Part shown: positions 6,035 through 30,339 of the stretch, in pieces
How the letters are laid out: every line of letters begins with the position of its first letter
Position numbering within the stretch: position 1 is the stretch's first letter
IMG/VR virus record: IMGVR_UViG_3300045988_111924
Span: 1 to 30,339 of that record
Source of the DNA: a virus
DNA length: 30,339 bases
Strand: one strand, 5' to 3'
Program-made: the position numbers and the translations under genes
Notes under the pieces: generated by a model
The model's input: only the letters and a program-made list of their open reading frames with translations
What the model was told of the DNA's origin: nothing
Database searches by the model: none

Positions 6035-8803
6035 TTAGAAACTTGCATTTGATTCTGTAACTGCAACTTTAGTTTGAGCATTAGTAATATCACTCTCAAC
6101 TACATAGCATTTAACAGGTTCATTTAATAAATCAGTCTCTTTATCACCAAGTAAGTTTCGAGTATATTCTACAGGAGCAGTGTTTAAAGCAGCAGGTGCT
6201 GCAACAGATGCAGAAGCAGAAGATGCAGATGCTCCACTAGTTTCATCTACCTCTCAAATCTTTTTAACATTTGCAATACCTGCAACTACTGCGGCTGCAG
6301 CTGCAGCAATACCTAAAGCAGGACCTACAATAGGAATTCCTGCCATAGCAGAGTATGCGCTATTTGCTGCTGAATAAGTGTCAATTAAAGCTTGTGCAGT
6401 AGCAAATCCTTTTCCAACTTTACTCTCTTCTCCCCAAATACTTGCCATACTTCCTGCAATGCTTGAAGCTACAGATAAAGTACCTTGTAAAGCTTGCTGC
6501 CTTGCTTTTTGAAGATTTTGATAAGCCTGAGTATTTGCCTGTTCATTAGCTAATTGAGCATCTGATAAGGCCATATTATTCTCAGTAAGAGTTCTTTGAA
6601 TTTCCTCTTTTTGTTCAGCAGTTAATTGTTCATTCATTAATTGCTGACTTAATAAGGCATTCTCTTGCTCTATTCTACCTTGAGTTAATGAGAGTAAGTT
6701 GTTATTGTATTCAATTTGAGCATTGTATTGATTCTCTAAGTCCTCTCTACTCTGATATGTAAATTTATAACCAGTCCCTTCATAATCTCCAGCTAATCCA
6801 AATGCTTTCGATATACCTTGAGTATAAGTAGTCTGAAAGGTCTGCTCTCTTGGCTCTCTCAAATTACTTGTAGAAGATAAATCTCTAATCCTTTTTAATT
6901 CAGACTGTAGATCATTCCAAGCTTTATCTGCATCTGCTTTACGCTTAGCTTCTTCATCAGCTCTAGCTTTATCTCTAATCTTTTTAAGTTCTTCCTGATG
7001 CCAAGCTTCTACCTCTTCAATTCCCCTATTATACTTAATAGCTAATGCTAATAGTCTAATATATTCATCTTCAAGTTCATCTACTGGGTCTTTATCCTCT
7101 AATCTCTTTTGAAGCCATTCATCAAATTCATTTATTACCTTCTTAGCTTCAGTAGTGTTCTTTGTAATAGTTGGAATATTAAAGAACCCACCATACTTTT
7201 TATTAGTATCTGCTACATCCTCAAATAGCTTTTTAAGCCTTTTCTCAATGTCTTTATTTAAATCATCCAACTGTTTATAAGTATTCTCTTTATTTTGCTT
7301 TGTATACTCATAAATTGTATTTGAATAATCTTTTCAGAACATTGCTGTAGCTTTAAAAGCCTGCCAAGCAGATACCTCTCCAAAACTTGTATCAGAAATT
7401 TGATTCTCCAGTTCAGTACGTTTGTTTAAATACTCCTCATAAAGCTTAATTGCAGCCTGTTCAATAGCCTGAGCTTTTGCTCTTGCAGTTAATGCTTCTA
7501 CATAATTACCAGTATTATTTACAAACGCATCTTCTGCAGTCTTTACATCAGTGATATTTAAACCAGTCTCTTTAATCTTATCTGAATATTGCTCTATAAA
7601 CTTACGCTTAGCATCTGCAGAATCTCCAACCCTTTCGTAAGCTATTTGGAGCTCTCTAAAGATAGCTATAGATTTAGAAGCAATCTGATTAGTAGTATCT
7701 GTAATAGACTTTCTAAATTCAGCAGCCTCCTTTTCAGCTGATTTTATTGAGGATATATACTCTATTATCTTATTAATAGCTACTCCAATAGCTGTAGCTA
7801 ATGCAATTCATACAGTTACATTACCAATAGTTTTAAGTGCAGTTTTAACTTTACCTACTCCAGAAGCAGCTTGTTCTGAAGCTTCAGCCATTGCTTTCTG
7901 AGCCTCTGCTCCTTTTCGCAAAGTTGGAATGCCTTTTTCTACATTTTCCTTTAATTCAGCAAGATCTACACCTAAACGTTTAGCAGCTTTCTGCATTCTC
8001 TCTGCTAGAGTTCCAGTCTCTTTTGCTGTTTCCTTTAAAAATTCAGCAACTGTAGTAAATGTAGGTTTTACTTCTTTAAAAGACTTTTTTGCAGTTTCTC
8101 CTAATTTACCTATAATTGGAATCGTATTAGATACACTCTTATTAGAAGCAGATATTTCAGCAGGAGTTCCAAGCATACCCTGAACCATTCCACCTCTGAG
8201 ATTAATATTGGTGCCTTCTAAATCCTTGACTACTTTAGAGATATTACCTAATTCAGTTCCAACATTACCAACAGATGTGCCAATGCCATTAAGCTTAGAT
8301 GTATCAATCTGATTAAGGTTTTTGGCAGCATTATTCAATCCTGTATTAAATGGGGAAATAAAATCAGTTAATTTCTTAAACCAATTACCTAAAGTGGGTA
8401 ATTCTTCTAATAAATCTTTTATACCTCCCACACCTTGAACTAAAGCAATAGTAGATTGTAACTTAACCATTACTTTATTTAAATCTTCTGATTCTTTCCC
8501 AAATAAAGTAATAGCAGCAGTTGCAGCACCATATCCACTAGCTAAGCCAGTGGATATTTTAGCTACACTTTCAAATCTTTGAGCAGTAGTTCTCGAAGAT
8601 CTTGCTATCTGCTCATTAATTTTATTGAACTCTGATTGTCTTTTACCTAGTAATGCAAGAGTTTCATTATATTCCTTAGTACCAATCTCTAAATCATTCA
8701 GAGAACTAGATAATGCGTCAATATCTTTCTTTAAAGAGTTTATTGACTTATTACTTGACTTAGTATCAATACTAATTACTTTTTTAATTTCTGTTTGTGC
8801 CAT
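6035..8803 (-). CDS. Tape-measure-like protein (922 aa)
   Basis: Track ORFs 7808..8803 and 6254..7270 and the unlisted stretches 7271..7807 and 6035..6253 form one frame. The only interruptions are TGA at 7808, 7334 and 6254. I checked every codon in 7337..7807 and found no TAA or TAG. Long coiled-coil sequence with Ala/Gly-rich hydrophobic segments, typical of tape-measure proteins. TAA stop at 6035. Confidence 0.7.
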
Positions 8804-11800
8804 TAGATTGTAATATTTTTAACAGTATCTTCTGTTAGTGTTAAATTCTCTGTATATTTAATTGTTCCTGTTGGTCCGTCAGATACTCTAAATAAAAATT
8901 GAACTCCATTTTGAGCATATATTCTATAACTTCCATCATCTCTCATATAAGTGACATTTAAGAAATTATCATTTTCAGTTAGAATCTGATTAACGCCAGA
9001 AGGAATACCTCCAGTAGAAGTTTGAAGCTTTCCTGTAATAAGAATAGCTTTATTTGGGTCTGGAGTTTGAGTAAACATACATTGAGGGCCATTTATACTT
9101 CCTTGTTTATAAAGACTAAAGTAGAAACTTCTTTGGTCATATGTAGTATTCTCATTATAAGTAACTGTTAATTCTGTTTCTCCAGGTTGCCCAGATTCAG
9201 GTGTAATGCTTACAATTTCATTTGGACTATATCATCCTAATTCTCAAGGAATATTAGAAGTAACTGTAATCTTTTTAGTCCCAGCTTTATAATCTACAAC
9301 TGGATCTGAATCATCAAATGATATATATTCACCTAGATTTTGAACTCCAGCTAAATAACTATTAATATCTTGAACTTTAATAAATTCGCATCTAACTGTA
9401 GAATCTGAATTAATATCATAAGCATCAATCTTATTAAGTACCCAGTAAGAATCTTCAAAATAATAGAACTGTCTAAGTAAATCATACTTAACATCTAAAT
9501 CATCCAATCTTACAAAGCAGGTAACTTTTTTAGTATTTACATCAAATTGATCATTATAAAATTCACTCCAGAATCTACTATATAAAGTAGATTGTTCTAA
9601 ATAACTAACTTTATCAATGTATATTTCTCTTGGAACCCCAAAATCTCAAGATGAAGATATAAAATTACTAGAAATAGTGTATCTTATAAATTGTGGTAAT
9701 ATGTTTCTTCTAATAGCTATTTTTTGTCCTGCAGAATTATTTTCACTATTAGTATAGATATAACAAGGTTCTCCATCATTAAGAACTGACATTTCTGTAA
9801 CATCATCAGTAATCCAATAATAAATAGGATTACCATTTATATCTTTCATATTAACATCATCATTATAAAATAATAAAGTACTTTTTATCTCTTCAAGACT
9901 TTGTTCATTATTATCTAATGTATAAAAACAAGTTTTTGCAAATATATCATTTCCAGGAACATCCCACCATTCTGTAGTCTTACCTTGGTCTATAAAATTA
10001 GCTCCATATAAATCCTGATCATTAGTCTTTACTTCTGTAGAAGTTCTATTAAATAAACTATATGTAATATTATCATTCATAAATGCGGGTACATAAGTAT
10101 TTCCAGAATTAAAGAAATTTCTAAAATACTTATCTGCATCTCTTGCTGATACTACATTTTGAAATATATTTCCAGAATATAAATCAGTATTATCACTATT
10201 AAAATTATATCCAGTGTTTAATCTTTGCTGACCATAATCTATATCATATTGTCTATCATATTTCTTGGCATAATATGTTTCTGGAGTTTCTAATGACATA
10301 GTGTATCACTTCTTATCAAATAATATTGGATTTACATTGAAGTCTTTAGAATAATCAATTCTTTTACTCCAATCAGAGATTATATTCTTAAAGAAATTAT
10401 TTCTAGTATGTATTCTAATTGTTTTACTATCAATATCTTTTGTAAAATATAATCCAAATAGTTTTGCATAACTTAATAAGTAATCAGCAGGAGATTGTTC
10501 TGTCTTTAATAATTTCTGCTTAGTAATTAAAGCATCAGAAGTAACTGCTGAAGGCCAAGACGCTTTTAGCGTATATTGATCTTCATCATATAAAAATTCT
10601 GACCATCCAGCAACTCTATTTGCTGTGACATTATTAGGATGCATATTATCTGACTGTCATACAGCATCTTGGTTATATAAATTTTCAGTTCTTCTTGCAA
10701 TTTGTATATTCACTAAAATCTTATTAACTTTAGGCATATCTTTTACAGTAAATCTGAAAGTATTAGTATTATTATCACTTTTGAAATAATACCTATTTCC
10801 ACTATCTTTTACAAAATGCCCATAAATAGCTTCTACAGGTGCATCAGTTAATGGATAATAATTAAATCAAGTGCCAGGCCCAGATTGAACTTGAGTGTTT
10901 ATCTTATTTGTAAAGTTATATAAAGGAGAGTATGCTATAGGTCTACTAGGAGATGAAGTATCTTCAGCATCATATATCAATATCTGTGCTGTTACTGATG
11001 TTCTGTAAGGATCATTCCTATAATCTGTATTTCCAGCTCTTCCGTTCCTTACATAAGATAAATATAAATCATTACCTGCTGAAACATTTGCATTATAAAA
11101 TAGCTGAAAATCAACATTAATATTAACAAGAGTATTAGCAGGAGTTGCAGATAAATCAATTACTTGTCCTTCACCAGGTACTATTACATCACTCCCTGTA
11201 ACACTAAATCTTCCTCAGTTTACTGAAGTAGTTGTTCCTCCAGGTTTTAATCCACACCAAAACAAATCATTATATTTAGTAAGTTTAGCATTCTCTGTAA
11301 TATTATCTGATTCTTCATCTTCAGTAGATCCTAATAAAGGTAATGCGACAAACGCTTTATTTCAATATGGATTTGAATAATTAAAGAAACTATCATCAAA
11401 TATCACATCATATCCAGAATTCTCTTTTCTACATATAGTTTCTATTAACTTACTTAATTTTAATGCTGGCCTTTGCATATAACTTCTAAGATCTCTCATC
11501 TCCCATTCTGTATATGCTCTATTTAATTTAGCTAATCCATATCCATTATAAGGTGTGTATGTAGTTCCTGAATCGGTCTTACTAGTAGGAAATAAATTAT
11601 CTCCATTAGTATTTATTAAACAAGTTTCATTATCAAAGTTTTCATATAAACCGTTATATGCAGGAATAAATGTTAAAAAATCATAAATTTGACTTCCGTC
11701 ATTTACTTTACTCCAATTAAAACAAGTATTTACAAAATCTTTATTAATGTGGAAATTCATTTCAGTATCGGTAGGAAGTACATTACCATCCTCATCAGTT

Positions 11801-12243
11801 ACAAAGTATTGTAAATCAGCTAGAGTTCTAATAGTGCCATCTTCTTTATATTTAAGTCCATAAAAGAAATCTCCCAATCCTCCATATAAAGTAATATTAT
11901 AAGTAATAACTGCTTGCTTTATAGAGATGCTATTTAACTGCATATATCCTGATTCAACTAAATATCCATTATTATAGATTCCAAAGTCAACTCTTTTTGA
12001 AGGATCAAAATATATGCCAGAGAAATTACCTTCTTTTATATGGAGAAATCTATCTAACTTATAAATCTCTCCAAAAATCTTATTATTGTTTTTGTCTCCT
12101 GGAATGCTTATAGTCTTACTGAATGAATTTTTTACTATTGTTGGATTCTGAAAATCTTCTACAGTATAAGTCATTGGTAATGATATGCCTTCAGAACAAT
12201 GTACTTCTTTTCCTGCAATAAATAATTTAATATTCTTTCTCAT
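8803..12243 (-). CDS. Large tail tip or baseplate protein (1146 aa)
   Basis: Five track ORFs (11362..12243, 10306..10644, 9646..10299, 9244..9507, 8803..9078) all share the same frame. The gaps contain only TGA, at 11362, 11215, 10867, 10657, 10306, 9646, 9244 and 9232. I checked codon by codon and found no TAA or TAG. ATG at 12241-12243. The TAA stop overlaps the next ATG. Confidence 0.8.
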
Positions 12244-12245: not shown

Positions 12246-14426
12246 TTATTTACGATAAGTATCTTGAGAAGTTTCTACATTAATTGTATAGTAGAACTTA
12301 TTCTTACCTTGATTAGTATAAGTTTTATATTCACAATTTGTATCTGTAATTAATACTGGAGTAATAGTATTATCTTTAAGATTATGCAAATATACTTTAG
12401 TACTCTCAATTAGATTAAACATCTTAGAAGCTTGAATATCATTTAAATAACCAGTATAAAGAACCCAGCTTGAAGTTATAGTATTCAAATACTTATTTCT
12501 TGCAAACTCTTGTGATGTATTTAATACCTTACGAGTATATGTTTCAGATTTAATCTCATCATTCTTTTTAACATTACCCTCAACAAGTAATGAATCCCAT
12601 CCACCTGCTGAATTAGTATAATATAATACATAATCTTTACCTGTAGTATCTATATCATATCTAATCTGTCTATCACTAATATTTCCACCTTCTACAAATC
12701 CTACTATTAAATAGCTTCCACAAGGCCATAATTTATTACTTAAATCTTCTGTATATGTATATCCATTAATTCCAGAATTTAAACTAATATCCATAGCAGA
12801 TTGTACTCCATCTATATAAAAGAATCTATTAATAACTCCAGTTCCAGTTGGTAGAATTCAACTTGATACTAAATACTGCCTTGGATCAACTAAACCAGTA
12901 ATAGGATCACTTAACATAGTGCCTTTAGTTAGATCTCTATCTTTATAACTCCAGTCATTGAAGAAAGTAATTGGTTTTTCATTTCCACTAGATGTTATCA
13001 AAGTAAATGGTTTCAAATATTCTGGAGATACTATTGTTTTTGAAGTATTAAATATAATTCCATTAGATAGATAATTTTCAGCTACATTATTTAATAGAAA
13101 CTCTACTCTATCTGTTTCAGGATATTTATAAGCCTTGCCAGCATAAACCATATCTCCTGCATAATCTAGATGATATTCAATAAAATCTGAACTGATTATC
13201 TCATTCCAAACATAATCTTTCCAAATAGGAGATATATCAGATTTAACAGATTGTGTAATATTAATAGATAAATTAATAATACTTGAACTATTCTTTATAA
13301 CAGATACTCCAATAGTTGCTTGTCTAGAAGATAAACCTGAATTTTCTGCAATGTTCAAACTAATAGTTGCTACACCTTGAGGATTCACAGAGAACTTCTG
13401 ACCACTAATCCAACCTACAGGAATACTAAATACAACATCATCTAAGTTATTTGAGCCTGTACCAATTATATTTAATGTAGATGCAGTTCAACTTACTTCA
13501 TAATTAGTATTAGGAATCATTAAAGATGTTGCAGCTTGTTTAATTGGAACTGTAGCTTCAAGAGTATAACCTCCAGAAGTTGTTGCAGTAACCATTGCAC
13601 TAAACTCTAAATTATTAGTAGTTTTATTCTCTGGAACAGTTAATACAAAATAGTTATCAACAATAACCTTTTTAATATTACTAGCTTGAGGGCAGGTGAC
13701 ATTAAATGAAGTAATTGTTTCTTCTGCTTTAGTTGTACTTAAATGGAATTCTTCAGTAACAAAAGCAGATGCTCCATAAGTTCCAGATGAAGGAGTTACT
13801 ACTAACTTTAAATCTTCTGGAGTATTACTCTTTTCAATCTTAAAGCCATAACTATAACTAATAAATTTATTAGTGTCATAATAAGCTCCTAATTGGATAG
13901 TTCCAATTAAATCGGTATTCCATTGAGTATTAGCTCTTACTGTGAATTTAAACTTAATAGAGCAAGAATCCCAATCCAGAACTTCTATATTAACTAAAGC
14001 TGTAGCATTAACAACTGCTGCATCTCATTTAATAATATCTGATCTATTTAATACATACTCTACTGTATATTCTCCACCAGTATTTGGTACATTAATACTA
14101 CTATTAGCAGGATAGAATCCAGGAGCTTTACTATGTAGATTAATTGGTAAATCTTCCATTAATAAAGCAGTAGTAATACCTCTAGGATAAAAATGAAGTA
14201 CAGTAGAAGAATCGGTAGTTATTGTTGTGGGAGATAAAAATTGTATTGTACATCCAGAAGTACTTGGATCTTGTATAGTTACATTTAAAGGACCCTCTTC
14301 AGTATAATCATCTCCCCAAGTCCAATAATCATATTCTCCAGTAATTCCCCATCCAGGATTATTCCATTTAACAGGAAAACTCCTTGATGCGTTATATATT
14401 CCTAATTTACTTGGTATAAATGCCAT
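12246..14426 (-). CDS. Tail structural protein (726 aa)
   Basis: Track ORFs 14025..14426, 12858..13388 and 12246..12794 share a frame. The 636-nt gap 13389..14024 has no TAA or TAG in frame. TGA occurs at 14025, 13488 and 12858. TAA stop at 12246. Confidence 0.75.
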
Positions 14427-15825: not shown

Positions 15826-17073
15826 CTATTTAATTTTAATATTATAATGTCCTTTGTTTGTATTTAATGAGTCATAGGCTAGCATTAATGAAATTACTGT
15901 ATCATCATTAAATCCAGATGGAGCATTATAACTAACATTTCCAGTTTTTGGATTATATGAAGCTTCATATAGTCTTAACTCATTTAAAAGTTTATCATCT
16001 TTTAATAATCCTATCTTTTCATTCTCCAAAGCAGCTTGAAGCTTATTAACTATATCTGCCTTACTCTTATTAGTAGTTAAGAATCGTATAATCCTGATTT
16101 TCGGATTCTTCCGAACTAACATATCATAGAAGACACTACCAATTGAGTTTTGTTCAACTTGTACAATCTTTATAAATCCTTGATACTCAGTTAGTATATT
16201 TGTTAATAAATCAACTTGCTCTGTTGGAGTTTTATCGTTAAAATACTTTATAAAGACCATTTGCCCAGATTCATTTAAAGCAGTAACACAAGTATAGTCT
16301 TTACCACTCCCAGTAGCCCAGTCTATTCCTATATAAAGACTCTGATAATCTGGTTTTTTCTCAATTATGCAATTAGCTATATTATTAAATAAACATCCAT
16401 CATCATCTGCAAATTCCCCTAAGTATTCGGTTCTAAATTTATTTTTTGAGGTTGTAAGTCGATACATCTCTAACTTCTCTTTATCTAAAAGCATAGATGT
16501 ATCTTCTAAAGCTCAATCAAATGATTTATAGAACTTGTCATATTTCGGATCTAACCCTTTAGTAAAGCAGTCATAAAAGAAACCCTCTCGGAACCTTGGA
16601 GTACTAATAATTAATATTGGAGCAGACCACACATCAGTAGTAGGTTTAATAATTTCAAATACTTCATCTTTTAAGTAAGCAGCCTCATCTAATACAAGTA
16701 ATCCACTTACAGAGAATCCTCGTAACGAATCCATTTGTTCTCCAGATCTAAATAATATAGAACTGCCATTATTAAACTCTAATTCAAGCAAAGTTTCATT
16801 CTTACGTTTAAGAATATCTGCTTCAGCTATAGCATTAACTATTTCTTTAAACACTTTTCTTGATTGTCCAAGAGTAGGTTCTACTATACAATTGACTGTT
16901 TTTGGATAGTTAATTGCAAATCGTAATAATTCATTTTCAGCTAAGAAAGATTTACCTACTTGTCGTTTAGCTTTAATTGTAAATATCCTTCCAGATCTAT
17001 AAGCATCTGCCATAGCTATATGAACCTTATATTGGTACATAAATGGCCTATATCCTTTATATATCCTTGTCAT
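15826..17073 (-). CDS. terL: Terminase large subunit (415 aa)
   Basis: Track ORFs 16513..17073 and 15826..16494 share a frame and are joined by a single TGA at 16513 (reads ...YKSFD-W-ALEDTSMLLDKE...). Walker A-like KAKRQVGKS and Walker B-like LLVLDEAAY are in the N-terminal half. A nuclease-like C-terminal half has IGIDWATG...DD. Stop is TAG at 15826. Confidence 0.8.
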
Positions 17074-17842: not shown

Positions 17843-18175
17843 TTAATTAATAAGTTTGTATATAACATCTATCAGCTTAGTAGATGCATCTTTTAATAAT
17901 ATCATAATATCTTTAATTAAGTCGTTATAGTATGCAACTAGCAATACTAATAATAAGTTCGGCAAACTAAAACCAAATCAAAATAAACTAATTATACCAA
18001 TTCAGGTGCCTAAACACCAACTACACACTCAAGGCTTAATCATTCAATCTTCATTAAATGGTAATCCTCTATATAAGTAATTTCATAATCTTTTCCTTAT
18101 AGGAATATCAATTCCTGACATAGTATATATAACTATAACAGTATTAATTATTAGAATACTTCCAAATAAACCCAT
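17843..18175 (-). CDS. Small membrane protein, DUF1360-like (110 aa)
   Basis: Invisible in the standard-code track. ATG at 18173-18175, TAA at 17843. Five in-frame TGA at 18083, 18044, 18029, 18002 and 17978. Reads ...KP-W-VCSWCLGT-W-IGIISLF-W-FGF. The CxWCxGxW motif and hydrophobic segments resemble DUF1360. An alternative start is the ATG at 18119-18121. Confidence 0.55.
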
Positions 18176-20095: not shown

Positions 20096-20393
20096 AATTT
20101 ATAAAGTTTAATTGTTAATATTATGTCTTACTTTCATAGTACAAATATACAACAAAAAATTCCAATTTCCAAATTTTTTAGGTATTATTTTTATTATTTT
20201 CAAAAAAATATTACTATTTGTATTTTTTAGTGCTAAAAATTTTGTAGATTAAAAAATTATTCTTATATTTGTAGTGTGATAATAAAAATACAATTTTAAA
20301 TAAAAACAATGCTTAAATTATTTGGATTTTAAATAAAAATGTTGTATATTTGTACTATCAAAATAGATTATTATAATTAAAATTTTAAAGACT
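20096..20393. promoter_or_regulatory. Divergent early control region with three Bacteroides-type promoter motifs
   Basis: Plus strand: TTTG (20241-20244), 19 nt, TATATTTG (20264-20271). Plus strand: TTTG (20321-20324), 20 nt, TATATTTG (20345-20352). Minus strand: TTTG (complement of 20170-20173), 20 nt, TATATTTG (complement of 20142-20149). The 18-mer gttgtatatttgtactat occurs at 20341-20358 and inverted at 20136-20153. The same sequences can also be read as TTGnnn-N16/17-TATATT, a sigma70-like pattern. Confidence 0.55.
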
Positions 20394-20563: not shown

Positions 20564-20589
20564 GGCAGGTGAAAGTCCTGCCACTTTTT
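20564..20589 (+). terminator. Rho-independent terminator
   Basis: Sequence is ggcagg-tgaaagt-cctgcc, followed by acttttt. Confidence 0.6.
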
Positions 20590-20599
20590 AATATTAAGG

Positions 20600-20673: not shown

Positions 20674-22392
20674 ATGAAAACATATTTAAATGAAATTATT
20701 AATGAGTTGCCAACTAACTGTTTATTTGATAAAGGAAAAGTTGGATGTGGAGGAACTTCAATGGCAATTGAATGCAATAAGCCTTATGTTATTTGTGTTC
20801 CATTTACTAGCTTAGTTGAAAATAAACTTCAACAATATCCAAATGAAAGACGTACTGAGAAGATATTTGGAGTTTATGCTGGTGTTACTATTAAAGAGAT
20901 TAAAGATTATGTAGATAGTGTTAAATGCCCTAAAATCATTGTTACCTATGATTCTCTTTATAAAGTTATTTCTGCAATTAATCCTAAAGAGTTTAGCATT
21001 TTAATTGATGAATATCATATTCTCTTTAATCAGTATAGCTTTAGAAGCTCTGCTATTCAATCAGTGCTTAAATATTATAAATTATTTGGTAATTTTACAT
21101 TTATGACCGCAACACCTTTAGAGGAAGAGTTTGTATTAGATGAATTAAAAGATTTAGAATTAGTAAAGCAGGAATGGGATGATGTTATAGATGTAAAAGT
21201 GCAAACTGTTAAATGTGATAATGTAGAAGCTTCTACTATTAAACTTATAAATGGATTTTTAAACGGACAGGTTGAAGGTAACGCCTACATATTCGTTAAT
21301 TCAGTAGACTTTATAAAGAACCTTATTAAGAAAGCCAAATTAACATCTAATAATACCAGAGTTATATATTCCAAAAACAATAAAACTAAACTGTCAATTC
21401 CTAATTCAACAGTCTTAGATGAACCTAAGAAAATAAACTTATTAACTTCAACTGTATTTGAAGGTTCAGATATTTATGATGAAAATGGAAGGATAATAAT
21501 TATATCTGATCCAAGTAAAGCTAATACATTACTTGATATATCAACTTCTATACAGCAGATTGCTGGTAGAATTAGAAATAGTAAATATATTAATTGGATA
21601 ACTCACATTTATTCTACAACAAGATATGCTGATATATCTTATGAAGAATTTAAAAAGCTTAATATCCAGAATATTGAAGAAACTAAAATTGCTGTAGAAG
21701 CATACAATAAACTTCCAGAGATAGCTAAAAAGAAACTTAGAGAATTTACTTCTGATGCATACATTAAATTAAATTGGGATGATGTATTTGAATTTGACCC
21801 TAATATGGCTAAAATTGATTTATTTAATTTTAAAGTATCTAGAGGACTGTATTCTGCTAGAGCTAATCTTTCTAAGGAATATATTAATAAAGGATTCAAT
21901 AAAGTGGTAGAACAATACGATAATTCTATAAAAATAGATCTAAATACTAAAACAAAAGCATTTAAAGATATAATTAAAGAAGTAAGAGGGGAATATGAAA
22001 CTTTATATAAATTAAACACACCAAAATTAGATGATGCTCTTATTAAATACCCTTGGTTAATGGATGCTATTACTAAACTTGGATTCAATAAAATGGCCAC
22101 TCTAAAATACTGTATTACTAAAATAAAAGATGAACTTATTAAAACTTCAGATAAATCTGTAGATAATAAAGTAGCAAATAAACTTAATAAAGATATAACT
22201 TTAGGTATGTGGTATTCTAATACTGATATTAAAAAGATACTACAAAAAGCTTATGATTTAGTTAATAAAACTAATGCTAAAGCTACTGATATTACAAAAT
22301 ATTATGAAGTTAAGGTAACTAAAAAATCAGTGAATGGAAACAGATCTTATGGATATACTATTATAGGTAAAAAGTATGTCTTTAAAAATTAG
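20674..22392 (+). CDS. SF2 (DExH-type) helicase-like replication protein (572 aa)
   Basis: Intact ORF. Motif I-like GKVGCGGTS, motif II LIDEYH, motif III MTATP, motif V-like TSTVFEGSD and motif VI-like QQIAGRIRN. All 5 Trp are TGG and there is no TGA. Stop is TAG. Confidence 0.65.
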   Translation: MKTYLNEIINELPTNCLFDKGKVGCGGTSMAIECNKPYVICVPFTSLVENKLQQYPNERRTEKIFGVYAGVTIKEIKDYVDSVKCPKIIVTYDSLYKVISAINPKEFSILIDEYHILFNQYSFRSSAIQSVLKYYKLFGNFTFMTATPLEEEFVLDELKDLELVKQEWDDVIDVKVQTVKCDNVEASTIKLINGFLNGQVEGNAYIFVNSVDFIKNLIKKAKLTSNNTRVIYSKNNKTKLSIPNSTVLDEPKKINLLTSTVFEGSDIYDENGRIIIISDPSKANTLLDISTSIQQIAGRIRNSKYINWITHIYSTTRYADISYEEFKKLNIQNIEETKIAVEAYNKLPEIAKKKLREFTSDAYIKLNWDDVFEFDPNMAKIDLFNFKVSRGLYSARANLSKEYINKGFNKVVEQYDNSIKIDLNTKTKAFKDIIKEVRGEYETLYKLNTPKLDDALIKYPWLMDAITKLGFNKMATLKYCITKIKDELIKTSDKSVDNKVANKLNKDITLGMWYSNTDIKKILQKAYDLVNKTNAKATDITKYYEVKVTKKSVNGNRSYGYTIIGKKYVFKN

Positions 22393-22949: not shown

Positions 22950-23540
22950 TTAAACATATCTTCACTTGAATCCTTTTACTTTATATCCTTCTCTAATTGC
23001 TTTAGAAATAGAATTTTTATGAACTCCAACATCTAAAGAAGTACTAACAGCACAATCATATTCTTTAATAAGAACATCATCTTTATATGCACCTACTTTT
23101 TTGGCTCTAGGATTATTGCCAAAAGAATTATTTAAATAGCTCAAATCTCTTCCTTTCTGGCTATCACTCATCTTTTTCCTAGTTTCTTCTGATAGATGTC
23201 TTCCAATACTTTTAGCTCTTATCTTATCTTTTCTTTCTTGAGTAAATATAATTCCACAAGTACCGTCTCCTCCATCAGTAGCATTATACCCATATTTTGG
23301 ATTTCTAGTATTATACTTATAAATCAGAATCTTTTCTAAAGTCTTAGCACAAGCTTCTGGAAGATTATCTCTAATTATAATATGCTCAAAATTATCTCAA
23401 CCATATTTTTTAATTGCTTTATAAAATGGCTGCTTTTTGTAACCTGTACCATTAGCTCATCTTATTTCAGGTTTCTTACAGGTAATACCAAAATATAATT
23501 TATTATTAGTTTTATTCTTATGATAGTAAAGAGAATACAT
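22950..23540 (-). CDS. GIY-YIG homing endonuclease (196 aa), second copy of this class
   Basis: Track ORF 22962..23171 is only the C-terminal fragment. The frame is open from the ATG at 23538-23540 through TGA at 23457, 23397 and 22962 to TAA at 22950. Reads YYHKNKTNNKLYFGIT...EIR-W-ANGTGYKKQPFYKAIKKYG-W-DNFEH...GFK-W-RYV. The KYGWDNF and RW positions are conserved Trp in this family. Confidence 0.8.
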
Positions 23541-23986
23541 TATACTAATGTGAAATATTGGTTCTTTAAATTATTAGGATTATATGAAATATGCCATCAA
23601 GAAGGCACTCCTTTTTTAGGTTTTTCTCTTATTATTTGTGAGAATTTAATAGTTGGAATTAATTGCTCAATAAACTTATCAAATTCTTCCATTCTTTTAT
23701 TTGCAGGTTTTAAATCAGCAGCAAATCCTCATAAATGATCCGAGGTTTTAGATCCACCAACTGCTTTATTTAAAAGATTACTTCTATAACCTGATGTTAC
23801 TATTATAGCAGGATTACCGAGATTGTTGTCATTGCAATATTTTGCCCACTTTTCTCTCATAGTATCCAATAAATTATCAACTAATATATTCAGGTTTGAA
23901 ATTGTTTTTTCATCTGGAGTATTATCAATGCCTTTTTGTTCAGCAGTTGTAGATCTTGTTAATTCGCTAATAGTAAAATATTTCAT
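23540..23986 (-). CDS. Endolysin, Peptidase_M15-type (148 aa)
   Basis: Track ORF 23729..23986 continues through TGA at 23729 and 23597 to TAA at 23540. The SxHxxGxAxD zinc-peptidase motif reads S-D-H-L-(TGA)-G-F-A-A-D. The start overlaps the holin stop. Confidence 0.75.
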
Positions 23987-25975: not shown

Positions 25976-27067
25976 TTATTCAACATTTTCTGCATTATCT
26001 GACATTCCTTTTGGAGTTAAACTAAATGGTTCAATAGTAATGCTATTCTTAATACCGAAGATTTTATCAAATGAATCACAAATTTCTGATTGTATTGGGC
26101 GTACAAAAGTACGATTATATAGCTTAAATGCTTCATTAAACTCATTTTCATTAAATCCTGAGCTATAGTTTAAACCGAACAACGAAGGATTAGCTCTGAA
26201 GGCACAGAATATTTGATCTCTGGTTCTCTCAGATAATGATTGATATTTCTCATCAAAATCATCAGAATCTAATCTTTCAATAGTAGTCTTATTTGCCTCA
26301 TCTGCATTATATGAAATCAATATTCTGCCAGCATTCTGATAACCAGAGAACTTCTCATTAATATTCCTCTCAATCTCCTCTCTAATTTCATCTGTAGGTT
26401 CCCCATTATTAAAGTTAATAATAAGATTACCCATAAATCCATTATTGATGTTATTTAAATGGAATTCATTAATATTTTTCTCAGTTTCACAAGATAAAAT
26501 AGCAGCTCCATAAACAGGAATAGGATATACTCCTCTTGTTATATAACCTTTATTATAAAATATACTAGCTGGATTTTCATCCCCAGCTCCAAATTTTGGA
26601 TATTTTATAGCTTTTACAGACCAAGCTGTCCAATCAGTTGCATAATATAATATATCATTCTTTTCGCTTGACCTTACATTCATAAAATCAATATGATATA
26701 TCTCTGCAACTCTTCCGAGCATATCTCTAATTACTTGGATAGCATAACCTCCAAATATCATCTTATCAATAGTGATTTTTCTCATTATATCAACTATTGT
26801 TTCACCTTTCTTGTTTACAACTACTTCAAATCCTGGAGCATTACATTTAACATCGTTACCAACAATAAAGTCAGCAGAACCATTAATAATGGATTGGAGA
26901 GTGGCAACATTTAAATATAAATCCCATAGATATAATGGATATTTGTTATCTTCTCCCCACATTATCATATCAGAACCTCTTTTCTTTGTTTCCGTTGGAA
27001 GAACGATGTTAGATTGAATGAAAGGATCTATGGCTGACATCATTATTTTACTTTTATTTTCGCTCAT
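25976..27067 (-). CDS. Portal protein (363 aa)
   Basis: Intact ORF. The N-terminal W-x-x-DN-x-YP-x-x-L-x-x-L...S-x-x-L-x-SII-x-G pattern and the overall length resemble PBSX/HK97-type portals. All 4 Trp are TGG. Confidence 0.65.
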   Translation of the reverse strand: MSENKSKIMMSAIDPFIQSNIVLPTETKKRGSDMIMWGEDNKYPLYLWDLYLNVATLQSIINGSADFIVGNDVKCNAPGFEVVVNKKGETIVDIMRKITIDKMIFGGYAIQVIRDMLGRVAEIYHIDFMNVRSSEKNDILYYATDWTAWSVKAIKYPKFGAGDENPASIFYNKGYITRGVYPIPVYGAAILSCETEKNINEFHLNNINNGFMGNLIINFNNGEPTDEIREEIERNINEKFSGYQNAGRILISYNADEANKTTIERLDSDDFDEKYQSLSERTRDQIFCAFRANPSLFGLNYSSGFNENEFNEAFKLYNRTFVRPIQSEICDSFDKIFGIKNSITIEPFSLTPKGMSDNAENVE

Positions 27068-27446: not shown

Positions 27447-27522
27447 ATTTTACATAGTTTTACATTACTTTTACATATCTTTTTCTTAAAATATAAACCA
27501 ATTTACTAATGTATTAAAATAA

Positions 27523-27548
27523 TTAAAGGAGACCTAAGCCTCCTTTAA
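27523..27548 (-). terminator. Stem-loop adjacent to element copy E
   Basis: Sequence is ttaaaggag-acctaagc-ctcctttaa, a 9-bp stem. On the minus strand it is followed by aattattttaat. Confidence 0.5.
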
Positions 27549-27597
27549 TGTCAAGTTTTTACTCACTCAAAGTACTAAGAAAAAATAAAAACTGACA
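27549..27597. promoter_or_regulatory. Conserved quasi-palindromic intergenic element, copy E
   Basis: Sequence is tgtcaagtttttactcactcaaagtactaagaaaaaataaaaactgaca. It begins directly after the stop of the LRR gene at 27599. Confidence 0.7.
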
Positions 27598-27598: not shown

Positions 27599-28576
27599 TT
27601 AGTTTGAACTTGCTAAAGTTCAGTTTTTAGATGCAGCTAATGATTTCTGTTCCTCAGTAAGTGCATTATAAACTGCAGAATTAAATGTAATAGTTTGTGT
27701 AGAAATTCCAGTTAAATCTGACACTGCTTCTAGAACATTATCAACTGAACTAGACGTTAATGAAGGAAGATTAGCTAAAGTAAATGACTTACTTGTAACT
27801 ACACCTCCGAATTCTGTTAATTCAGTTAGCCAGTATGAACTTCCAAATGTATAGCCAAAAGCTGTGGAGTCTAATGACTTATCAGGAGATATAGTTATTT
27901 TGCCTAAAGATTTTAATTTTTTACAATATGTAAACATCTGATTTGTTTGACCAGTACAGTTTGGAGCGTAAATATCTGGAATGGTTTCAATTGATTCACA
28001 ATAATTGAAAATGCCAGAAAGAGAAGTTGCTATAGAAAAATCTATATTTGGTAAAGTAAGCAAACTACTACAGTTACTAAAAGTTTGAAAATATTGAGAT
28101 AATTTTAAATTTGCATCTATTTCAACTAACTTAGTGCAGTTATAGAAAAGTTGGGAACCTTGATTACTGGTGCTATTTAATAAGGTTATTTTATGTATAC
28201 CATTAGCGGTGGAAATGGTATAAAACATAGTATTCATATTTTTGCCTTGGCAATCAAATGTGAATTCATCGTTTTGAGACCATTCACATCCGTAGAAAAA
28301 ATGATCATAAGAATATTTATTTAGTATAAAATAATCCTCCAATTTTAATTCCCCACCATCCCTAAATTTATGCATATTAGAAAATCCTAATGATAATGGA
28401 ATAATACTTAAATCAATTTTACCTCCACCACCTCCAGATATTTCTCCAATCTTTTCTGCATAACTTCTAAAGGTATCTGAATCTGATACAGCAACACCTT
28501 TAGCTACAATAGCATCTTTAATGGCACTCTTAGTACCTTCAAGATACGTTAATTTATCAGAAATTGTATTTGCCAT
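27599..28576 (-). CDS. BspA/DUF285-like leucine-rich-repeat tail protein (325 aa), receptor-binding candidate
   Basis: Track ORF 27620..28576 continues through TGA at 27620 to TAA at 27599 (...EEQKSLAASKN-W-TLASSN). Repeats of the type FxxCxxLxxIP...MFxxCxxL. The C-terminus is paralogous to 29498..30028. Confidence 0.65.
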
Positions 28577-29497: not shown

Positions 29498-30339
29498 TTA
29501 TGCAACTCGATTTATGCTCCAATTCTTTGAAGCGATTAATGATTTCTGTTCATCTGTTAATTTATCATATGCAGTAGATTTGAATGATATACTTGTATTA
29601 GAACTTACTGCTGTGCCAATAGATTCTGCTATAGTTTGTAATGAATCTGTAGATAAATTTGGAGATTGTGCAAAATAAAGAATTCCTCCTTTAGTTAAAC
29701 TCTCTCCTAATCCATTTAAAGCTCCTACAGTTACTAATTCTGGACAATTTGCAGCAAAACTAGTACAATCTGTAACAAGATGGCAATCTATTTCTGGTGT
29801 AGCTGTTAATCTACTACAAGTACTAAACATATAGCTTATATCTGTAATTCCAGTAAAGGTAAAATTACTTGGAATAGTTGTTAGATATAATGCTCTATGA
29901 AACATATGATTACAATCTCCTTTAAATGGAATATTAATCGTTATATTATCTATATTAGTAGCTCCATCATCTGTCTCTGCAAATGCCCATTTTGGATCTA
30001 CTAATACAAGATTTTGAAAATTATTCATTACAGAGAAATCATTATTATCTATTTTTACTCCAATAAATAAATAATTTGCACTTACTTCTTTAGTAGTTGT
30101 AGGTATTTTAACATTAGATAAAGTAGCACTATGTATTGTTTGACCCCAAAATTGAGATTCACTAGACCATCTTCCATATGCTTCATTAAGATTAGTAATC
30201 TCCTGGTTATTTAGATCAAAATGAGATGTTTCAAAAAACCCTCCTTTTCTACTTAAATCTCCACTATTTAACTTTACATCTGCATATGTTTGAGCAGAAC
30301 CTATAATACTACAAAGAGGTACACCATCTATATTAAGGG
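29498..30339 (-). CDS. 3' (C-terminal) part of the wrap-around BspA/DUF285-like LRR tail protein. Its N-terminus is at 1..365.
   Basis: The frame of ORF 29498..30028 stays open upstream to the window end, with no stop in 30029..30339. The repeat motif MFHRALYLTTIP...ISYMFSTCSRLTATP is DUF285-like. Ends ...EQKSLIASKNWSINRVA, with the Trp encoded by TGG at 29519-29521. Confidence 0.7.
   Translation of the reverse strand, partial: LNIDGVPLCSIIGSAQTYADVKLNSGDLSRKGGFFETSHFDLNNQEITNLNEAYGRWSSESQFWGQTIHSATLSNVKIPTTTKEVSANYLFIGVKIDNNDFSVMNNFQNLVLVDPKWAFAETDDGATNIDNITINIPFKGDCNHMFHRALYLTTIPSNFTFTGITDISYMFSTCSRLTATPEIDCHLVTDCTSFAANCPELVTVGALNGLGESLTKGGILYFAQSPNLSTDSLQTIAESIGTAVSSNTSISFKSTAYDKLTDEQKSLIASKNWSINRVA
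30255..30339. repeat. Terminal direct repeat copy 2 (identical to 1..85)
   Basis: Read directly. Exact 85/85 identity with the window start. Confidence 0.9.

What the first reader, a model, noticed from the sequence alone, without database searches (positions are those of the whole stretch)
27599..27640. Internal proof of TGA = Trp: a TGA aligns with a TGG Trp in an in-genome paralog
The two LRR tail proteins have paralogous C-termini. Gene 29498..30339 ends ...EQKSLIASKN-W-SINRVA, with the W encoded by TGG (complement of 29519-29521). Gene 27599..28576 reads ...EEQKSLAASKN-(TGA)-TLASSN and then a TAA. The TGA at 27620-27622 occupies exactly the Trp column. This needs no external database and argues against Gly (table 25) or simple termination.
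Basis: seen in the sequence. Interest (0 to 1): 0.8.

Follow-up and report, generated by a model that had tools for sequence, protein, structure and literature searches.

The report
Gut phage reads TGA as tryptophan
In this complete 30-kb gut phage genome the "stop" codon TGA encodes tryptophan, a known kind of phage recoding, and the genome carries no tRNA of its own that could read it.

Summary
Gene A (27599..28576, minus strand) has an in-frame TGA at 27620-27622, then six more codons and TAA. With the TGA masked or the query truncated before it, A still aligns to paralog B (E about 1e-11). The TGA falls exactly on B's TGG Trp, and both proteins have six residues after that column.

External tests agree. 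Orthologs carry TGA (29) or TGG (4) there. Standard-code relatives, including cultured Flavobacterium, carry TGG. Across 120 homologs the column is W or Y and never G. Genome-wide, the 40 in-frame TGAs align to TGA 497, TGG 204, Tyr 60 and Gly 1 in orthologs, and TGA is never used as a stop. Gly and simple termination are therefore rejected.

TGA-to-Trp phages are already described, so this is a new member of a known kind. The more interesting point lies outside the finding. The window is a complete circular genome of 30,254 bp with no tRNA, release factor or TrpRS. It has Bacteroidota-type promoters and start sites, and TGA is strongly avoided in capsid, portal and replication genes. What decodes UGA remains unknown.

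The parts
27620..27622 (-). In-frame TGA, codon 319 of gene A, read as Trp
   Evidence: Sequence. Aligns to the TGG Trp of paralog B with the TGA masked or removed. Orthologs: TGA 29, TGG 4. TGG in standard-code relatives. W319 is one of 22 invariant columns in 51 sequences.
27599..28576 (-). Gene A: 325-aa LRR-type (DUF285/BspA-like) putative tail or receptor-binding protein, ATG 28576, TAA 27599-27601
   Evidence: Pfam LRR_5 E=2.4e-4, below cut-off. Homologs carry PF03382/PF13306. AF2 model of the 95%-identical ortholog has pLDDT 89.3. Foldseek neighbours are all LRR proteins.
27602..27619 (-). Six codons after the TGA (T L A S S N), translated as the last beta-strand of the protein
   Evidence: T-L-A-S is invariant in 33 orthologs although the codons vary: ACT/ACA, GCA/GCG/GCT, and Ser as AGT/TCA/TCT. 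Modelled as strand E319-323 in blocks with pLDDT about 98 and 91.
27522..27549 (-). Intrinsic-terminator-like hairpin plus T-run about 50 nt after gene A's TAA
   Evidence: 12-bp stem, 4 GC pairs, followed by TATTTT.
29519..29521 (-). TGG Trp of paralog B in the same alignment column
   Evidence: In B's own orthologs this column is TGG 9, TGA 8.
29498..30339 (-). Gene B, C-terminal part (the gene continues from the other end of the window)
1..365 (-). Gene B, N-terminal part (ATG at 365). Bases 1-85 repeat 30255-30339, so the window is a circular assembly of 30,254 unique bp
   Evidence: exact 85-bp terminal overlap, and the joined ORF is 373 aa with no stop.
15826..17073 (-). Terminase large subunit with one in-frame TGA (16513-16515); split into two ORFs under the standard code
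   Evidence: Orthologs at that codon: TGA 27, TGG 3.
8803..12243 (-). 1146-aa structural protein with 8 in-frame TGAs
   Evidence: every TGA site has TGG in some orthologs.
12246..14426 (-). 726-aa structural protein with 3 in-frame TGAs
6035..8803 (-). 922-aa tape-measure-like protein with 3 in-frame TGAs
23540..23986 (-). Peptidase_M15_3 endolysin with 2 in-frame TGAs. SDHL[TGA]GFAAD aligns to SRHMYGHAAD of PDB 1lbu
   Evidence: Pfam E=1.1e-16; PDB alignment.
17843..18175 (-). Small membrane (holin-like) protein, 5 TGA / 1 TGG
   Evidence: 65% TGA across orthologs.
3159..4064 (-). Major-capsid-like gene that avoids TGA (0 TGA / 4 TGG; 2 / 121 across orthologs)
   Evidence: PHROG hits; codon counts.
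25976..27067 (-). Portal gene, TGA-poor (0/4 here; 16/124 across orthologs)
20674..22392 (+). The only large plus-strand gene (helicase-like), TGA-poor (0/5 here; 1/38 across orthologs)
20142..20352 (.). Three TTTG-N(19-21)-TAnnTTTG promoter-like sites (20173..20142 minus strand; 20241-20271 and 20321-20352 plus strand) in the divergent intergenic region
   Evidence: Conserved at the same place in 20 relatives, at 3.0 per kb against 0.081 per kb elsewhere. The consensus is that of Bacteroidota sigma-ABfr (PMC7366714).

Best explanation
SHOWN. The TGA at 27620-27622 is a sense codon for tryptophan (W319) in gene A, an LRR-type tail protein. Translation continues for six more residues (TLASSN), which form the last beta-strand of the C-terminal cap, and stops at TAA 27599-27601. 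This is one of 40 in-frame TGAs in a complete, circular 30,254-bp tailed-phage genome. That genome and its whole lineage use TGA as a second Trp codon (code-4-like) and terminate only at TAA or TAG.

SHOWN. Neither the genome nor any of 89 related loci encodes a tRNA, and no release-factor, TrpRS or tRNA-modifying domain is recognisable. TGA usage depends strongly on the gene. It is nearly absent from capsid, portal, scaffold and the plus-strand helicase-like gene. It is frequent in gene A, the nucleases and a holin-like membrane gene.

INFERRED (about 50%). The host is a Bacteroidota bacterium with the standard code. This rests on the sigma-ABfr-type promoters, the absence of Shine-Dalgarno sites, A at -3 and -13, and the peptidoglycan endolysin. 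UGA would then be decoded in the infected cell by something supplied in trans or not recognisable by sequence. Candidates are a suppressor tRNA-Trp(UCA) from a co-resident phage, prophage or the host; or a phage protein that antagonises RF2 or alters host tRNA-Trp. Low-copy and late proteins would tolerate or exploit such decoding, while abundant proteins avoid it. This matches the model of Borges et al.
For: Gene-level evidence:
- A aligns to B without the W (E=1.2e-11 masked, 2.1e-11 truncated), and the TGA lands on B's TGG with equal six-codon tails.
- 33 orthologs have TGA 29, TGG 4. L001 differs from four TGG loci by that one base only. The tail T-L-A-S is invariant while synonymous codons change, including Ser as AGT vs TCA/TCT.
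- B's own column is TGG 9, TGA 8 in its orthologs.
- Standard-code phages L106 and L109 (0 in-frame TGA, 56 TGG, TGA as stop in 2 genes) have TGG in SKG-W-NIAHW / AKG-W-NIASK. The masked-X alignments give E=6.7e-34 and 1.2e-26.
- Cultured Flavobacterium sp. CAU 1735 and F. supellecticarium have ...GKG-W(TGG)-TIVG*.
- In 120 homologs the column is W 101, Y 6, G 0. W319 is invariant in a 51-sequence alignment reaching 26% identity.
- In the AF2 model (pLDDT 89.3), W319-S323 form the terminal beta-strand.

Genome-level evidence:
- Reading through TGA fuses fragments into 1148-, 927-, 730- and 415-codon frames.
- Ortholog codons aligned to the 40 TGAs are TGA 497, TGG 204, Tyr 60, GGN 1.
- 31 of 36 covered TGA sites have TGG in at least one ortholog. 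BLOSUM scores are W 317, Y 108, F 58, G -145.
- Stop codons are 27 TAA, 3 TAG, 0 TGA.
- Every relative is recoded, with TGA 18-68% of Trp codons in long loci.
- M15 motif SDHL[TGA]GFAAD aligns to SRHMYGHAAD in 1lbu.

No decoding machinery: ARAGORN finds nothing. Rfam cmscan at E<=5 finds no tRNA. Relaxed ARAGORN gives as many hits as shuffled sequence. Pfam and PHROGs find no relevant domain. The genome is complete.

Host and mechanism inference: promoters; SD in 1 of 30 genes, A at -3 = 0.70 and at -13 = 0.73; M15_3 endolysin; per-gene TGA share of 2-3% in capsid-like and helicase-like genes against 65-82% in holin-like, GIY-YIG and gene A; TGA is only 33% of Trp codons although other NNA/NNG pairs are 69-89% A.

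Literature: TGA-to-W phages infecting standard-code hosts are documented, with a suppressor tRNA detected in only 35% of them (bioRxiv 10.1101/2021.08.26.457843).
Against: There is no protein-level evidence. The amino-acid identity is inferred from alignments only.

The orthologs are closely related, so the raw codon counts are pseudo-replicated. The per-site figure (31 of 36 sites) is the fairer one. The tblastn run used code 4, which favours placing TGA opposite W, although identities are mostly above 80% and the TGG counts do not depend on the code setting.

On the inferred decoding step, the host was not identified. TerL has no relative in 185,579 species genomes. The phage has no relative in GenBank phage records. 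The bacterial loci share only tail-fibre modules with it.

TGA-containing genes lie directly downstream of the minus-strand promoter, which argues against a clean early/late code switch. The base after TGA does not differ from the base after TGG (p=0.15 and 0.27), so there is no sign of competition with RF2. That is as expected if the cell simply lacks RF2, which favours the native code-4 host rival.
Confidence: 0.93

Rival explanations
1. The host itself reads UGA as Trp (native code 4: tRNA-Trp(UCA) present, no RF2). The phage has simply adapted to its host, so it needs no machinery of its own.
For: No tRNA or code-change gene in a complete genome or in 89 related loci. TGA is never a stop. 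TGAs occur in the first genes after the promoter and in about two thirds of genes. No +4 context bias. The trait is stable across the whole lineage, including relatives at 63-66% identity.
Against: Known code-4 bacteria are wall-less Mycoplasmatales, insect or protist endosymbionts and a few Eggerthellaceae (bioRxiv 10.64898/2025.12.01.691617). This phage has a peptidoglycan endolysin and Bacteroidota-type promoters and start sites. TGA is only 33-35% of Trp codons despite a 69-89% A preference in other codon pairs. It is almost absent from the most abundant proteins (2/121 in the capsid-like gene), which suggests that TGA is costly.
Confidence: 0.3
2. In gene A the TGA is a genuine stop. The product is 318 aa ending ...AASKN, the next six codons are untranslated, and the match to B's Trp is coincidence.
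For: Under the standard code the ORF ends there. Some database gene calls for homologs end at ...SKN. The TGA is near the 3' end, so truncation would remove only 7 residues.
Against: Four orthologs have TGG there and must translate the same tail. T-L-A-S in the tail is invariant despite synonymous codon changes, including a switch between the two Ser codon families. Standard-code homologs all continue 3-6 residues past a TGG Trp. The Trp is invariant and begins a confidently modelled terminal beta-strand. 39 other in-frame TGAs interrupt essential genes. The coincidence probability is about 7e-4. Partial termination that yields a minor truncated isoform cannot be excluded.
Confidence: 0.03
3. 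TGA encodes glycine (code 25, as in Gracilibacteria/Absconditabacteria and their phages).
For: Code 25 phages exist. The genome has low GC and no tRNA of its own.
Against: Among 341 non-TGA ortholog codons aligned to the window's TGAs, GGN occurs once, against TGG 204 and Tyr 60. The BLOSUM score for G is -145 against +317 for W. No Gly occurs in the gene A column among 120 homologs.
Confidence: 0.01
4. The TGA is a sequencing or assembly error, or a recent nonsense mutation in a decaying gene. Alternatively it encodes selenocysteine or cysteine.
For: It differs from TGG by a single base.
Against: The same TGA is present in 29-30 independent assemblies. It interchanges with TGG at 31 of 36 covered sites. 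No TGT or TGC aligns to any TGA site. Forty sites, several per gene in some genes, do not fit SECIS-dependent Sec insertion.
Confidence: 0.01

Closest known systems
TGA-recoded ('code 4') gut phages described by Borges et al. (bioRxiv 10.1101/2021.08.26.457843; clades Jade, Agate and small-genome clades)
   Same: In-frame TGA is read as Trp and the genome has low GC. Recoded codons are favoured in structural, tail and lysis genes and avoided in a replication gene. The predicted host uses the standard code. As in 65% of their code-4 genomes, there is no detectable suppressor tRNA.
   Different: This is a complete 30.25-kb circular genome with a thorough negative result for tRNA, RF1 and TrpRS. 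Membership of any of the named clades was not tested. No integrase was seen. TerL is under 30% identical to any deposited phage, and there is no match by DNA or capsid protein in GenBank phage records.
crAss-like phages of Bacteroidota with reassigned TAG or TGA
   Same: A probable Bacteroidota host, low GC, no Shine-Dalgarno sites, and stop-codon reassignment in late genes.
   Different: crAss-like genomes are about 100 kb and typically carry suppressor tRNAs. This genome is 30 kb with no tRNA. No relation was detected in the phage-collection searches. Only code 15 has been validated by proteomics so far (PMC9523058).
Phages of native code-4 bacteria (Mycoplasma and Spiroplasma phages)
   Same: TGA = Trp, with no suppressor tRNA needed and TGA never used as a stop.
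   Different: Those hosts lack peptidoglycan, whereas this phage has an M15 endolysin. Its promoters and start sites look Bacteroidota-like. TGA is the minority Trp codon and is avoided in abundant proteins.
Code-25 phages of Gracilibacteria/Absconditabacteria (TGA = Gly)
   Same: TGA is a sense codon throughout the genome, and no phage tRNA is needed.
   Different: The amino acid is Trp, not Gly: 204 TGG against 1 GGN at aligned positions.
DUF285 (PF03382) / BspA-type LRR_5 (PF13306) proteins
   Same: Genes A and B and their homologs share the LRR solenoid and the C-terminal cap motif ...(E/D)EQ..A..K(G/N)W(T/N)I.., in which the Trp is invariant.
   Different: Gene A itself scores below the Pfam LRR_5 threshold (21.5 vs 27.7 bits). 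It carries a phage-specific N-terminal anchor (MANTISDKLTYLEGTKSAIKDAIVAKGV...) that is exchanged among phages of many phyla.

Membership tests
Alternatively coded phage, TGA to Trp (code-4-like) | In-frame TGAs interrupt conserved essential genes, and read-through restores full-length ORFs | tested here: met
   1148-, 927-, 730- and 415-codon frames appear only with TGA read through. TerL is split at 16513-16515 under code 11.
Alternatively coded phage, TGA to Trp (code-4-like) | TGA positions align to Trp in homologs, including standard-code ones | tested here: met
Alternatively coded phage, TGA to Trp (code-4-like) | TGA is not used as a terminator | tested here: met
   27 TAA, 3 TAG, 0 TGA.
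Alternatively coded phage, TGA to Trp (code-4-like) | Phage-encoded suppressor tRNA(UCA) or other code-change genes (RF1, TrpRS). These are frequent in the family but not universal | tested here: not met
   no tRNA; no such domain. Borges et al. found a suppressor in only 35% of code-4 genomes, so this does not exclude membership.
Alternatively coded phage, TGA to Trp (code-4-like) | The recoded codon is biased toward late or lysis genes and away from early or replication genes | tested here: met
   helicase-like 3% and capsid-like 2%, against holin-like 65% and gene A 82%. However, abundant late proteins (capsid, portal) also avoid TGA, so the bias follows abundance as much as timing.
Alternatively coded phage, TGA to Trp (code-4-like) | Peptide evidence for Trp at TGA | not testable with these tools
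   This needs LC-MS/MS. PMC9523058 validated only code 15.
Code 25 (TGA = Gly) phage | TGA positions align to Gly in homologs | tested here: not met
   1 GGN among 341 non-TGA aligned codons. BLOSUM score for G is -145.
Phage of a native code-4 host (Mycoplasmatales-type) | Host lacks RF2 and has tRNA-Trp(UCA) | not testable with these tools
   Host not identified.
Phage of a native code-4 host (Mycoplasmatales-type) | TGA is the dominant Trp codon in a low-GC genome, with no abundance-linked avoidance | tested here: not met
   TGA is 33% of Trp codons against 69-89% A in other codon pairs. Capsid-like gene: 2/121.
Phage of a Bacteroidota host | Sigma-ABfr-type promoters (TTTG at -33, TAnnTTTG at -7) | tested here: met
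   Three sites in 20142-20352, conserved in 20 relatives and 37-fold enriched there. Consensus from PMC7366714. Genome-wide, TAnnTTTG alone is not enriched.
Phage of a Bacteroidota host | No Shine-Dalgarno sites; A-rich at -3 and at -11 to -15 | tested here: met
   SD in 1 of 30 genes. A at -3 = 0.70 and at -13 = 0.73 against a background of 0.37. The genome is AT-rich, so this is supportive but not decisive.
Phage of a Bacteroidota host | Direct host link (prophage, CRISPR spacer, isolate) | tested here: inconclusive
   No TerL relative in GTDB species genomes. The only full-length tail-protein homologs in cultured genomes are in Flavobacterium, but no other phage gene is shared.
DUF285 / BspA-type LRR protein | Significant match to PF03382 or PF13306 | tested here: inconclusive
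   Gene A: LRR_5 at 21.5 bits, below the 27.7 cut-off. Gene B: no hit. Many homologs carry both domains. Foldseek neighbours are all LRR proteins, at weak E-values of 0.007 or higher.

The most novel reading that the evidence does not exclude
UGA in this phage is decoded by something not yet described. The genome is complete, has no tRNA and has Bacteroidota-style expression signals. That leaves two novel options. One is a non-tRNA code switch made by the phage in a standard-code host, such as an RF2 antagonist that lets host tRNA-Trp read UGA, or C-to-U editing of the tRNA-Trp anticodon. The other is a still unrecognised UGA=Trp bacterial lineage with peptidoglycan, possibly within Bacteroidota. 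The more ordinary alternative is a suppressor tRNA borrowed from a co-resident phage, a prophage or the host.
Probability: 0.4. Interest if true: 0.72.

Novelty: new member of a known kind. Interest (0 to 1): 0.38.

Why it matters
Practical value. Under the standard code about two thirds of this phage's genes are fragmented or truncated, so annotation must use code 4. Public protein databases already hold calls of this very gene that end at the TGA position.

Scientific value. TGA-to-Trp recoding in gut phages is established, so the finding confirms a known phenomenon. What this genome adds is a small and complete test case: 30 kb, about 31 genes, no tRNA, no release factor and no TrpRS. How recoded phages without suppressor tRNAs get their stop codons read is still an open question. 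The strong avoidance of TGA in abundant proteins gives a quantitative handle on how costly that decoding is.

Tried and rejected
1. Host from the 148.6-kb IMG/VR contig (L036/L072). It is a concatemer of related phage genomes, not host DNA.

2. Prophage or host search with TerL in 185,579 species genomes: no relative found. A second scan with the tail-protein alignment returned only shared tail-fibre modules in genomes from many phyla, which does not identify the host.

3. GenBank phage collection. TerL is under 30% identical to anything there, and the capsid protein and 12 kb of DNA gave no match.

4. Hidden suppressor tRNA. ARAGORN at an 80% threshold gave 11 hits, including a 'tRNA-SeC(tca)' at 25694-25791. 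Shuffled sequence gives 11.45 hits on average and also gives tca hits, and the candidate's stems are full of mismatches, so I rejected it. Rfam at E<=5 returned only snoRNA and miRNA noise.

5. RF2-competition signature. The base after TGA does not differ from the base after TGG (p=0.15 and 0.27), so there is no support for leaky near-cognate readthrough.

6. Genome-wide TAnnTTTG enrichment: none (42 observed, 46 expected). Only the two-part motif in the intergenic region is significant.

7. TerL TGA against solved terminase structures. The alignments do not cover residue 187, so this was uninformative.

8. Summed ORF length under code 4 versus code 11 as a code classifier for distant loci. 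It is inflated under code 4 for every sequence, so I did not use it.

Full report
**1. The observation**

On the minus strand, gene A starts at ATG 28576 and reads ...GCA TCT AAA AAC TGA ACT TTA GCA AGT TCA AAC TAA. The TGA is at 27622..27620 and the TAA at 27601..27599. Gene B ends ...TCA AAG AAT TGG AGC ATA AAT CGA GTT GCA TAA, with TGG at 29521..29519. The finder's coordinates and peptide strings are correct.

BLASTP of A against B gives E=4e-13 when the TGA is translated as W. To avoid circularity I repeated this with the TGA masked as X (E=1.2e-11) and with A cut just before the TGA (E=2.1e-11). The truncated alignment ends at A318/B272, so the next column pairs TGA with TGG. Both genes then have exactly six codons before TAA.

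If the TGA were a true stop, the coincidence would be roughly 0.016 (Trp frequency in B) times 0.044 (six open codons followed by a stop), or about 7e-4. The single column is therefore good evidence, but it falls short of proof.

**2. The window is a complete, recoded phage genome**

- The first 85 bases repeat the last 85. The window is thus a circular assembly of 30,254 unique bp. Gene B is a complete 373-aa ORF that starts at ATG 365 on the minus strand, crosses the junction and stops at 29498. A related contig that joins sequence matching window ~27616 directly to window 279-511 confirms circular permutation.
- Under the standard code the minus strand is a patchwork of fragments. Reading through TGA produces frames of 1148, 927, 730 and 415 codons. 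I count 40 in-frame TGAs against 80 TGGs in 31 genes. The stop codons are 27 TAA, 3 TAG and no TGA.
- Annotated genes include a portal, a capsid-like protein and a head protease or scaffold (PHROGs and Pfam), TerL and a Peptidase_M15_3 endolysin (E=1.1e-16). There are also two GIY-YIG-type and one HNH homing endonucleases.
- The genome is that of a small tailed dsDNA phage with 25-36% GC along its length.

**3. Which amino acid: gene A**

*Orthologs.* In 33 IMG/VR loci the column is TGA 29 times and TGG 4 times, and never anything else. L001 (TGA ACA TTA GCT TCT GCA TAG) differs from L004, L021, L024 and L032 (TGG ACA TTA GCT TCT GCA TAG) by that one base only. The first four tail residues, T-L-A-S, never change although their codons do: ACT/ACA, GCA/GCG/GCT, and Ser as AGT, TCA or TCT. 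That is the signature of a translated region under purifying selection. Gene B's own Trp column is TGG in 9 of its orthologs and TGA in 8.

*Standard-code relatives.* Phage contigs L106 and L109 (37-38 kb, 34.5% GC) have 56 in-frame TGG, no in-frame TGA, and two genes that stop at TGA. They share the gene order fibre, DUF285 LRR, portal, DUF6712. Their homologs end SKG-W-NIAHW* and AKG-W-NIASK*, with W encoded by TGG. With the TGA masked, the full-length alignments (E=6.7e-34 and 1.2e-26) put X opposite that W.

*Cellular genomes.* Cultured Flavobacterium sp. CAU 1735 and F. supellecticarium, plus a Bacteroidetes MAG, have ...ATGKG-W(TGG)-TIVG*. A 'Mollicutes' MAG has ...NKG-W(TGG)-NVK*.

*Wider family.*
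- Among 120 database homologs the column is W in 101 rows and Y in 6. One properly aligned protein has F and none has G.
- Every W or Y protein continues for 3-6 residues after the column.
- Six proteins end exactly at the column (SKN or AKG). They look like gene calls truncated at a TGA, though I did not read their DNA.
- W319 and K317 are among only 22 invariant columns in a 51-sequence alignment that reaches 26% identity.
- A second recoded lineage (L107, L108) has TGA in the same column.

**4. Which amino acid: the whole genome**

For every in-frame TGA in the window I tabulated the codon at the aligned position in 71 related loci.

| Aligned ortholog codon | Count |
|---|---|
| TGA | 497 |
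| TGG | 204 |
| Tyr (TAT/TAC) | 60 |
| Gly (GGN) | 1 |
| Cys (TGT/TGC) | 0 |

The remaining counts are a scatter of Leu, Phe, Thr, Ala, Val and Ile. Because the orthologs are related, the per-site figure is fairer: 31 of 36 covered TGA sites have TGG in at least one ortholog, and one has GGN. A BLOSUM62 score over distinct residues per site ranks W 317, Y 108, F 58 and G -145. With W removed the order is Y, F, L. In the other direction, the window's TGG sites align to TGA 337 times.

The endolysin motif SDHL[TGA]GFAAD aligns to SRHMYGHAAD in PDB 1lbu, so that column holds an aromatic residue. All relatives are recoded, including those only 63-66% identical, with TGA making up 18-68% of Trp codons in long loci. 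Code 25 (Gly), Cys or Sec, sequencing error and simple termination are therefore rejected.

**5. What the Trp does in protein A**

AlphaFold2 on the 95%-identical ortholog P0001 (same length, same C-terminus) gives mean pLDDT 89.3 and pTM 0.78. Helix 308-316 (EEQKSLATS) is followed by a final beta-strand, 319-323 (WTLAS), in blocks with pLDDT of about 98 and 91. All Foldseek neighbours are leucine-rich-repeat proteins: Nogo receptor, Bacteroides ovatus BACOVA_04585 and T. pallidum TpLRR. The scores are weak (E of 0.007 or higher) but agree on the fold class.

The residues after the TGA are therefore part of the C-terminal cap of an LRR solenoid. That fits the invariance of the Trp and the conservation of the tail. 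The protein is modular:
- Its N-terminal ~50 residues form a widely exchanged anchor, found in tail genes of genomes labelled Clostridia, Alphaproteobacteria, Gastranaerophilales, Flavobacterium and Bacilli.
- Its central LRR part is swapped between orthologs, which are about 40% identical overall but nearly identical at both ends.

A role as a tail or receptor-binding protein is inferred from this anatomy and from the neighbouring fibre genes. It is not shown.

**6. How UGA gets decoded: the open part**

*No decoding machinery in the genome.*
- ARAGORN finds no tRNA in the window or in 89 related loci.
- Rfam covariance models at E<=5 find none.
- A relaxed ARAGORN run yields as many hits as shuffled sequence. 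Its one UCA candidate, antisense inside a gene at 25694-25791, is junk.
- No protein shows a release-factor, TrpRS or tRNA-modifying domain.

Because the genome is complete, the decoding agent must come from outside it or be unrecognisable by sequence.

*Host clues.*
- The M15 endolysin implies a peptidoglycan host, which argues against wall-less Mycoplasmatales.
- Only 1 of 30 genes has a Shine-Dalgarno-like motif. Start sites show A at -3 (0.70) and -13 (0.73) against a background of 0.37, with G depleted.
- The single large divergent intergenic region holds three TTTG-N(19-21)-TAnnTTTG sites, where about 0.06 would be expected by chance.
- These sites are conserved in 20 relatives, at 3.0 per kb there against 0.081 per kb elsewhere.
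- This is the sigma-ABfr promoter consensus of Bacteroidota, whose mRNAs lack SD sequences and are A-rich at -3, -6 and -11 to -15 (PMC7366714).
- No code-4 Bacteroidota is known. UGA=Trp is reported only for Mycoplasmatales, some endosymbionts and a few Eggerthellaceae (bioRxiv 10.64898/2025.12.01.691617).

*Codon-usage clues.* TGA supplies only 33% of Trp codons, although every other A/G-ending codon pair prefers A at 69-89%. Across the lineage its share is extremely gene-specific:

| Gene | Ortholog TGA / TGG | TGA share |
|---|---|---|
| Capsid-like | 2 / 121 | 2% |
| 2594-3118 | 2 / 92 | 2% |
| Helicase-like | 1 / 38 | 3% |
| Scaffold-like | 0 / 23 | 0% |
| Portal | 16 / 124 | 11% |
| HNH nuclease | 60 / 44 | 58% |
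| Holin-like | 64 / 35 | 65% |
| GIY-YIG nuclease | 41 / 12 | 77% |
| Gene A | 79 / 17 | 82% |

This suggests that TGA is costly or temporally restricted, as proposed for recoded phages of standard-code hosts (Borges et al.).

*Evidence pointing the other way.* TGA-bearing genes sit directly behind the minus-strand promoter. The base following TGA does not differ from that following TGG (p=0.15 and 0.27), so there is no sign of competition with RF2.

*My estimates.*

| Decoding scenario | Probability |
|---|---|
| Standard-code (probably Bacteroidota) host, with decoding supplied in trans or by an unrecognised phage factor | ~50% |
| Native UGA=Trp host | ~30% |
| Other or undetected | ~20% |

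**7. Comparison with what is known, and verdict**

TGA-to-Trp recoding in gut phages is documented, including the fact that only 35% of such genomes show a suppressor tRNA. Proteomic validation so far concerns code 15, and TGA-to-W remains a prediction (PMC9523058).

This lineage is absent from GenBank phage records and from GTDB species genomes. It is abundant in IMG/VR, with dozens of contigs of about 30 kb. It meets the defining features of an alternatively coded TGA=Trp phage, except that it has no suppressor tRNA, which is not a universal feature of the family. It fails the test for code 25.

As a discovery it is a new member of a known kind. Its residual interest lies in being a compact, complete case with no tRNA, which could be used to work out how UGA is decoded.

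Noticed in passing
window 1-85 and 30255-30339: An exact 85-bp terminal overlap shows that the window is a complete circular assembly of 30,254 unique bp. Gene B (373 aa) spans the junction, with ATG at 365 and TAA at 29498 on the minus strand.
   Followed up: yes
window 20142-20352: Three TTTG-N(19-21)-TAnnTTTG (Bacteroidota sigma-ABfr-type) promoter-like sites lie in the only large divergent intergenic region. They are conserved in 20 relatives and about 37-fold enriched there. Together with the near absence of Shine-Dalgarno motifs and A at -3 and -13, they point to a Bacteroidota host.
   Followed up: yes
whole window, e.g. 3159-4064, 2594-3118, 25976-27067, 20674-22392 versus 27599-28576, 22950-23540, 17843-18175: TGA share of Trp codons is extremely gene-specific across the lineage. 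It is 2-3% in capsid-like, 2594-3118 and helicase-like genes and 11% in portal. It is 65-82% in the holin-like, GIY-YIG and gene A genes. Overall TGA is only 33-35% of Trp codons, although other NNA/NNG pairs are 69-89% A.
   Followed up: yes
window 367-2502 (minus strand): The 711-aa fibre-like protein has no tryptophan codon at all (0 TGG, 0 TGA). It contains two copies of a motif of the form LVSGTNIKTIN..S.LGEGN.E. The motif recurs in fibre genes of relatives and of the standard-code phages.
   Followed up: partly
window 22950-23540, 4066-4635, 18144-18710 (minus strand): There are three homing-endonuclease genes: GIY-YIG/NUMOD3, a second NUMOD3/GIY-YIG-like gene wedged between the scaffold-like and capsid-like genes, and HNH_3/NUMOD4/NUMOD1. 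They are patchily present in relatives and among the most TGA-rich genes.
   Followed up: partly
L036 and L072 (IMGVR_UViG_3300045988_175865, 148.6 kb): This 'viral genome' is a concatemer of related ~30-kb genomes and not a prophage in host DNA. In it, sequence matching window ~27616 joins directly to window 279-511, so that variant lacks the gene A / gene B cassette.
   Followed up: partly
gene A N-terminus, window 28427-28576; loci L111-L125: The first ~50 residues (MANTISDKLTYLEGTKSAIKDAIVAKGV...TFRSYA.KI) occur at 47-78% identity in tail genes of genomes labelled Clostridia, Alphaproteobacteria, Gastranaerophilales, Flavobacterium and Bacilli. This anchor module is widely exchanged. The central LRR part of gene A is swapped between otherwise near-identical phages.
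   Followed up: partly
L107 and L108 (ENA contigs, 27.8% GC): A second, more distant TGA-recoded lineage carries a 401-aa homolog with three in-frame TGAs, one of them in the same Trp column (AKG-TGA-TIK*).
   Followed up: partly
database proteins P0008, P0009, P0042, P0044, P0049, P0120: These public protein predictions for this gene family end at ...SKN or ...AKG, exactly at the TGA column. They look like gene calls made under the standard code, which would make them database artefacts of unrecognised recoding. Their DNA was not read.
   Followed up: partly
L106 and L109 (ENA contigs of 37-38 kb, 34.5% GC): These standard-code phages share the window's gene order: fibre, DUF285 LRR protein(s), portal, DUF6712. 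They are candidate non-recoded distant relatives of the lineage, useful for dating the code change.
   Followed up: partly
window 20396-20548 (+) and 20565-20590: A small plus-strand ORF of 50 aa lies downstream of the two plus-strand promoter-like sites. It is followed by a GC-rich hairpin (AGGCAGG...CCTGCC) and a T-run. It has no TGA and its function is unknown.
   Followed up: no
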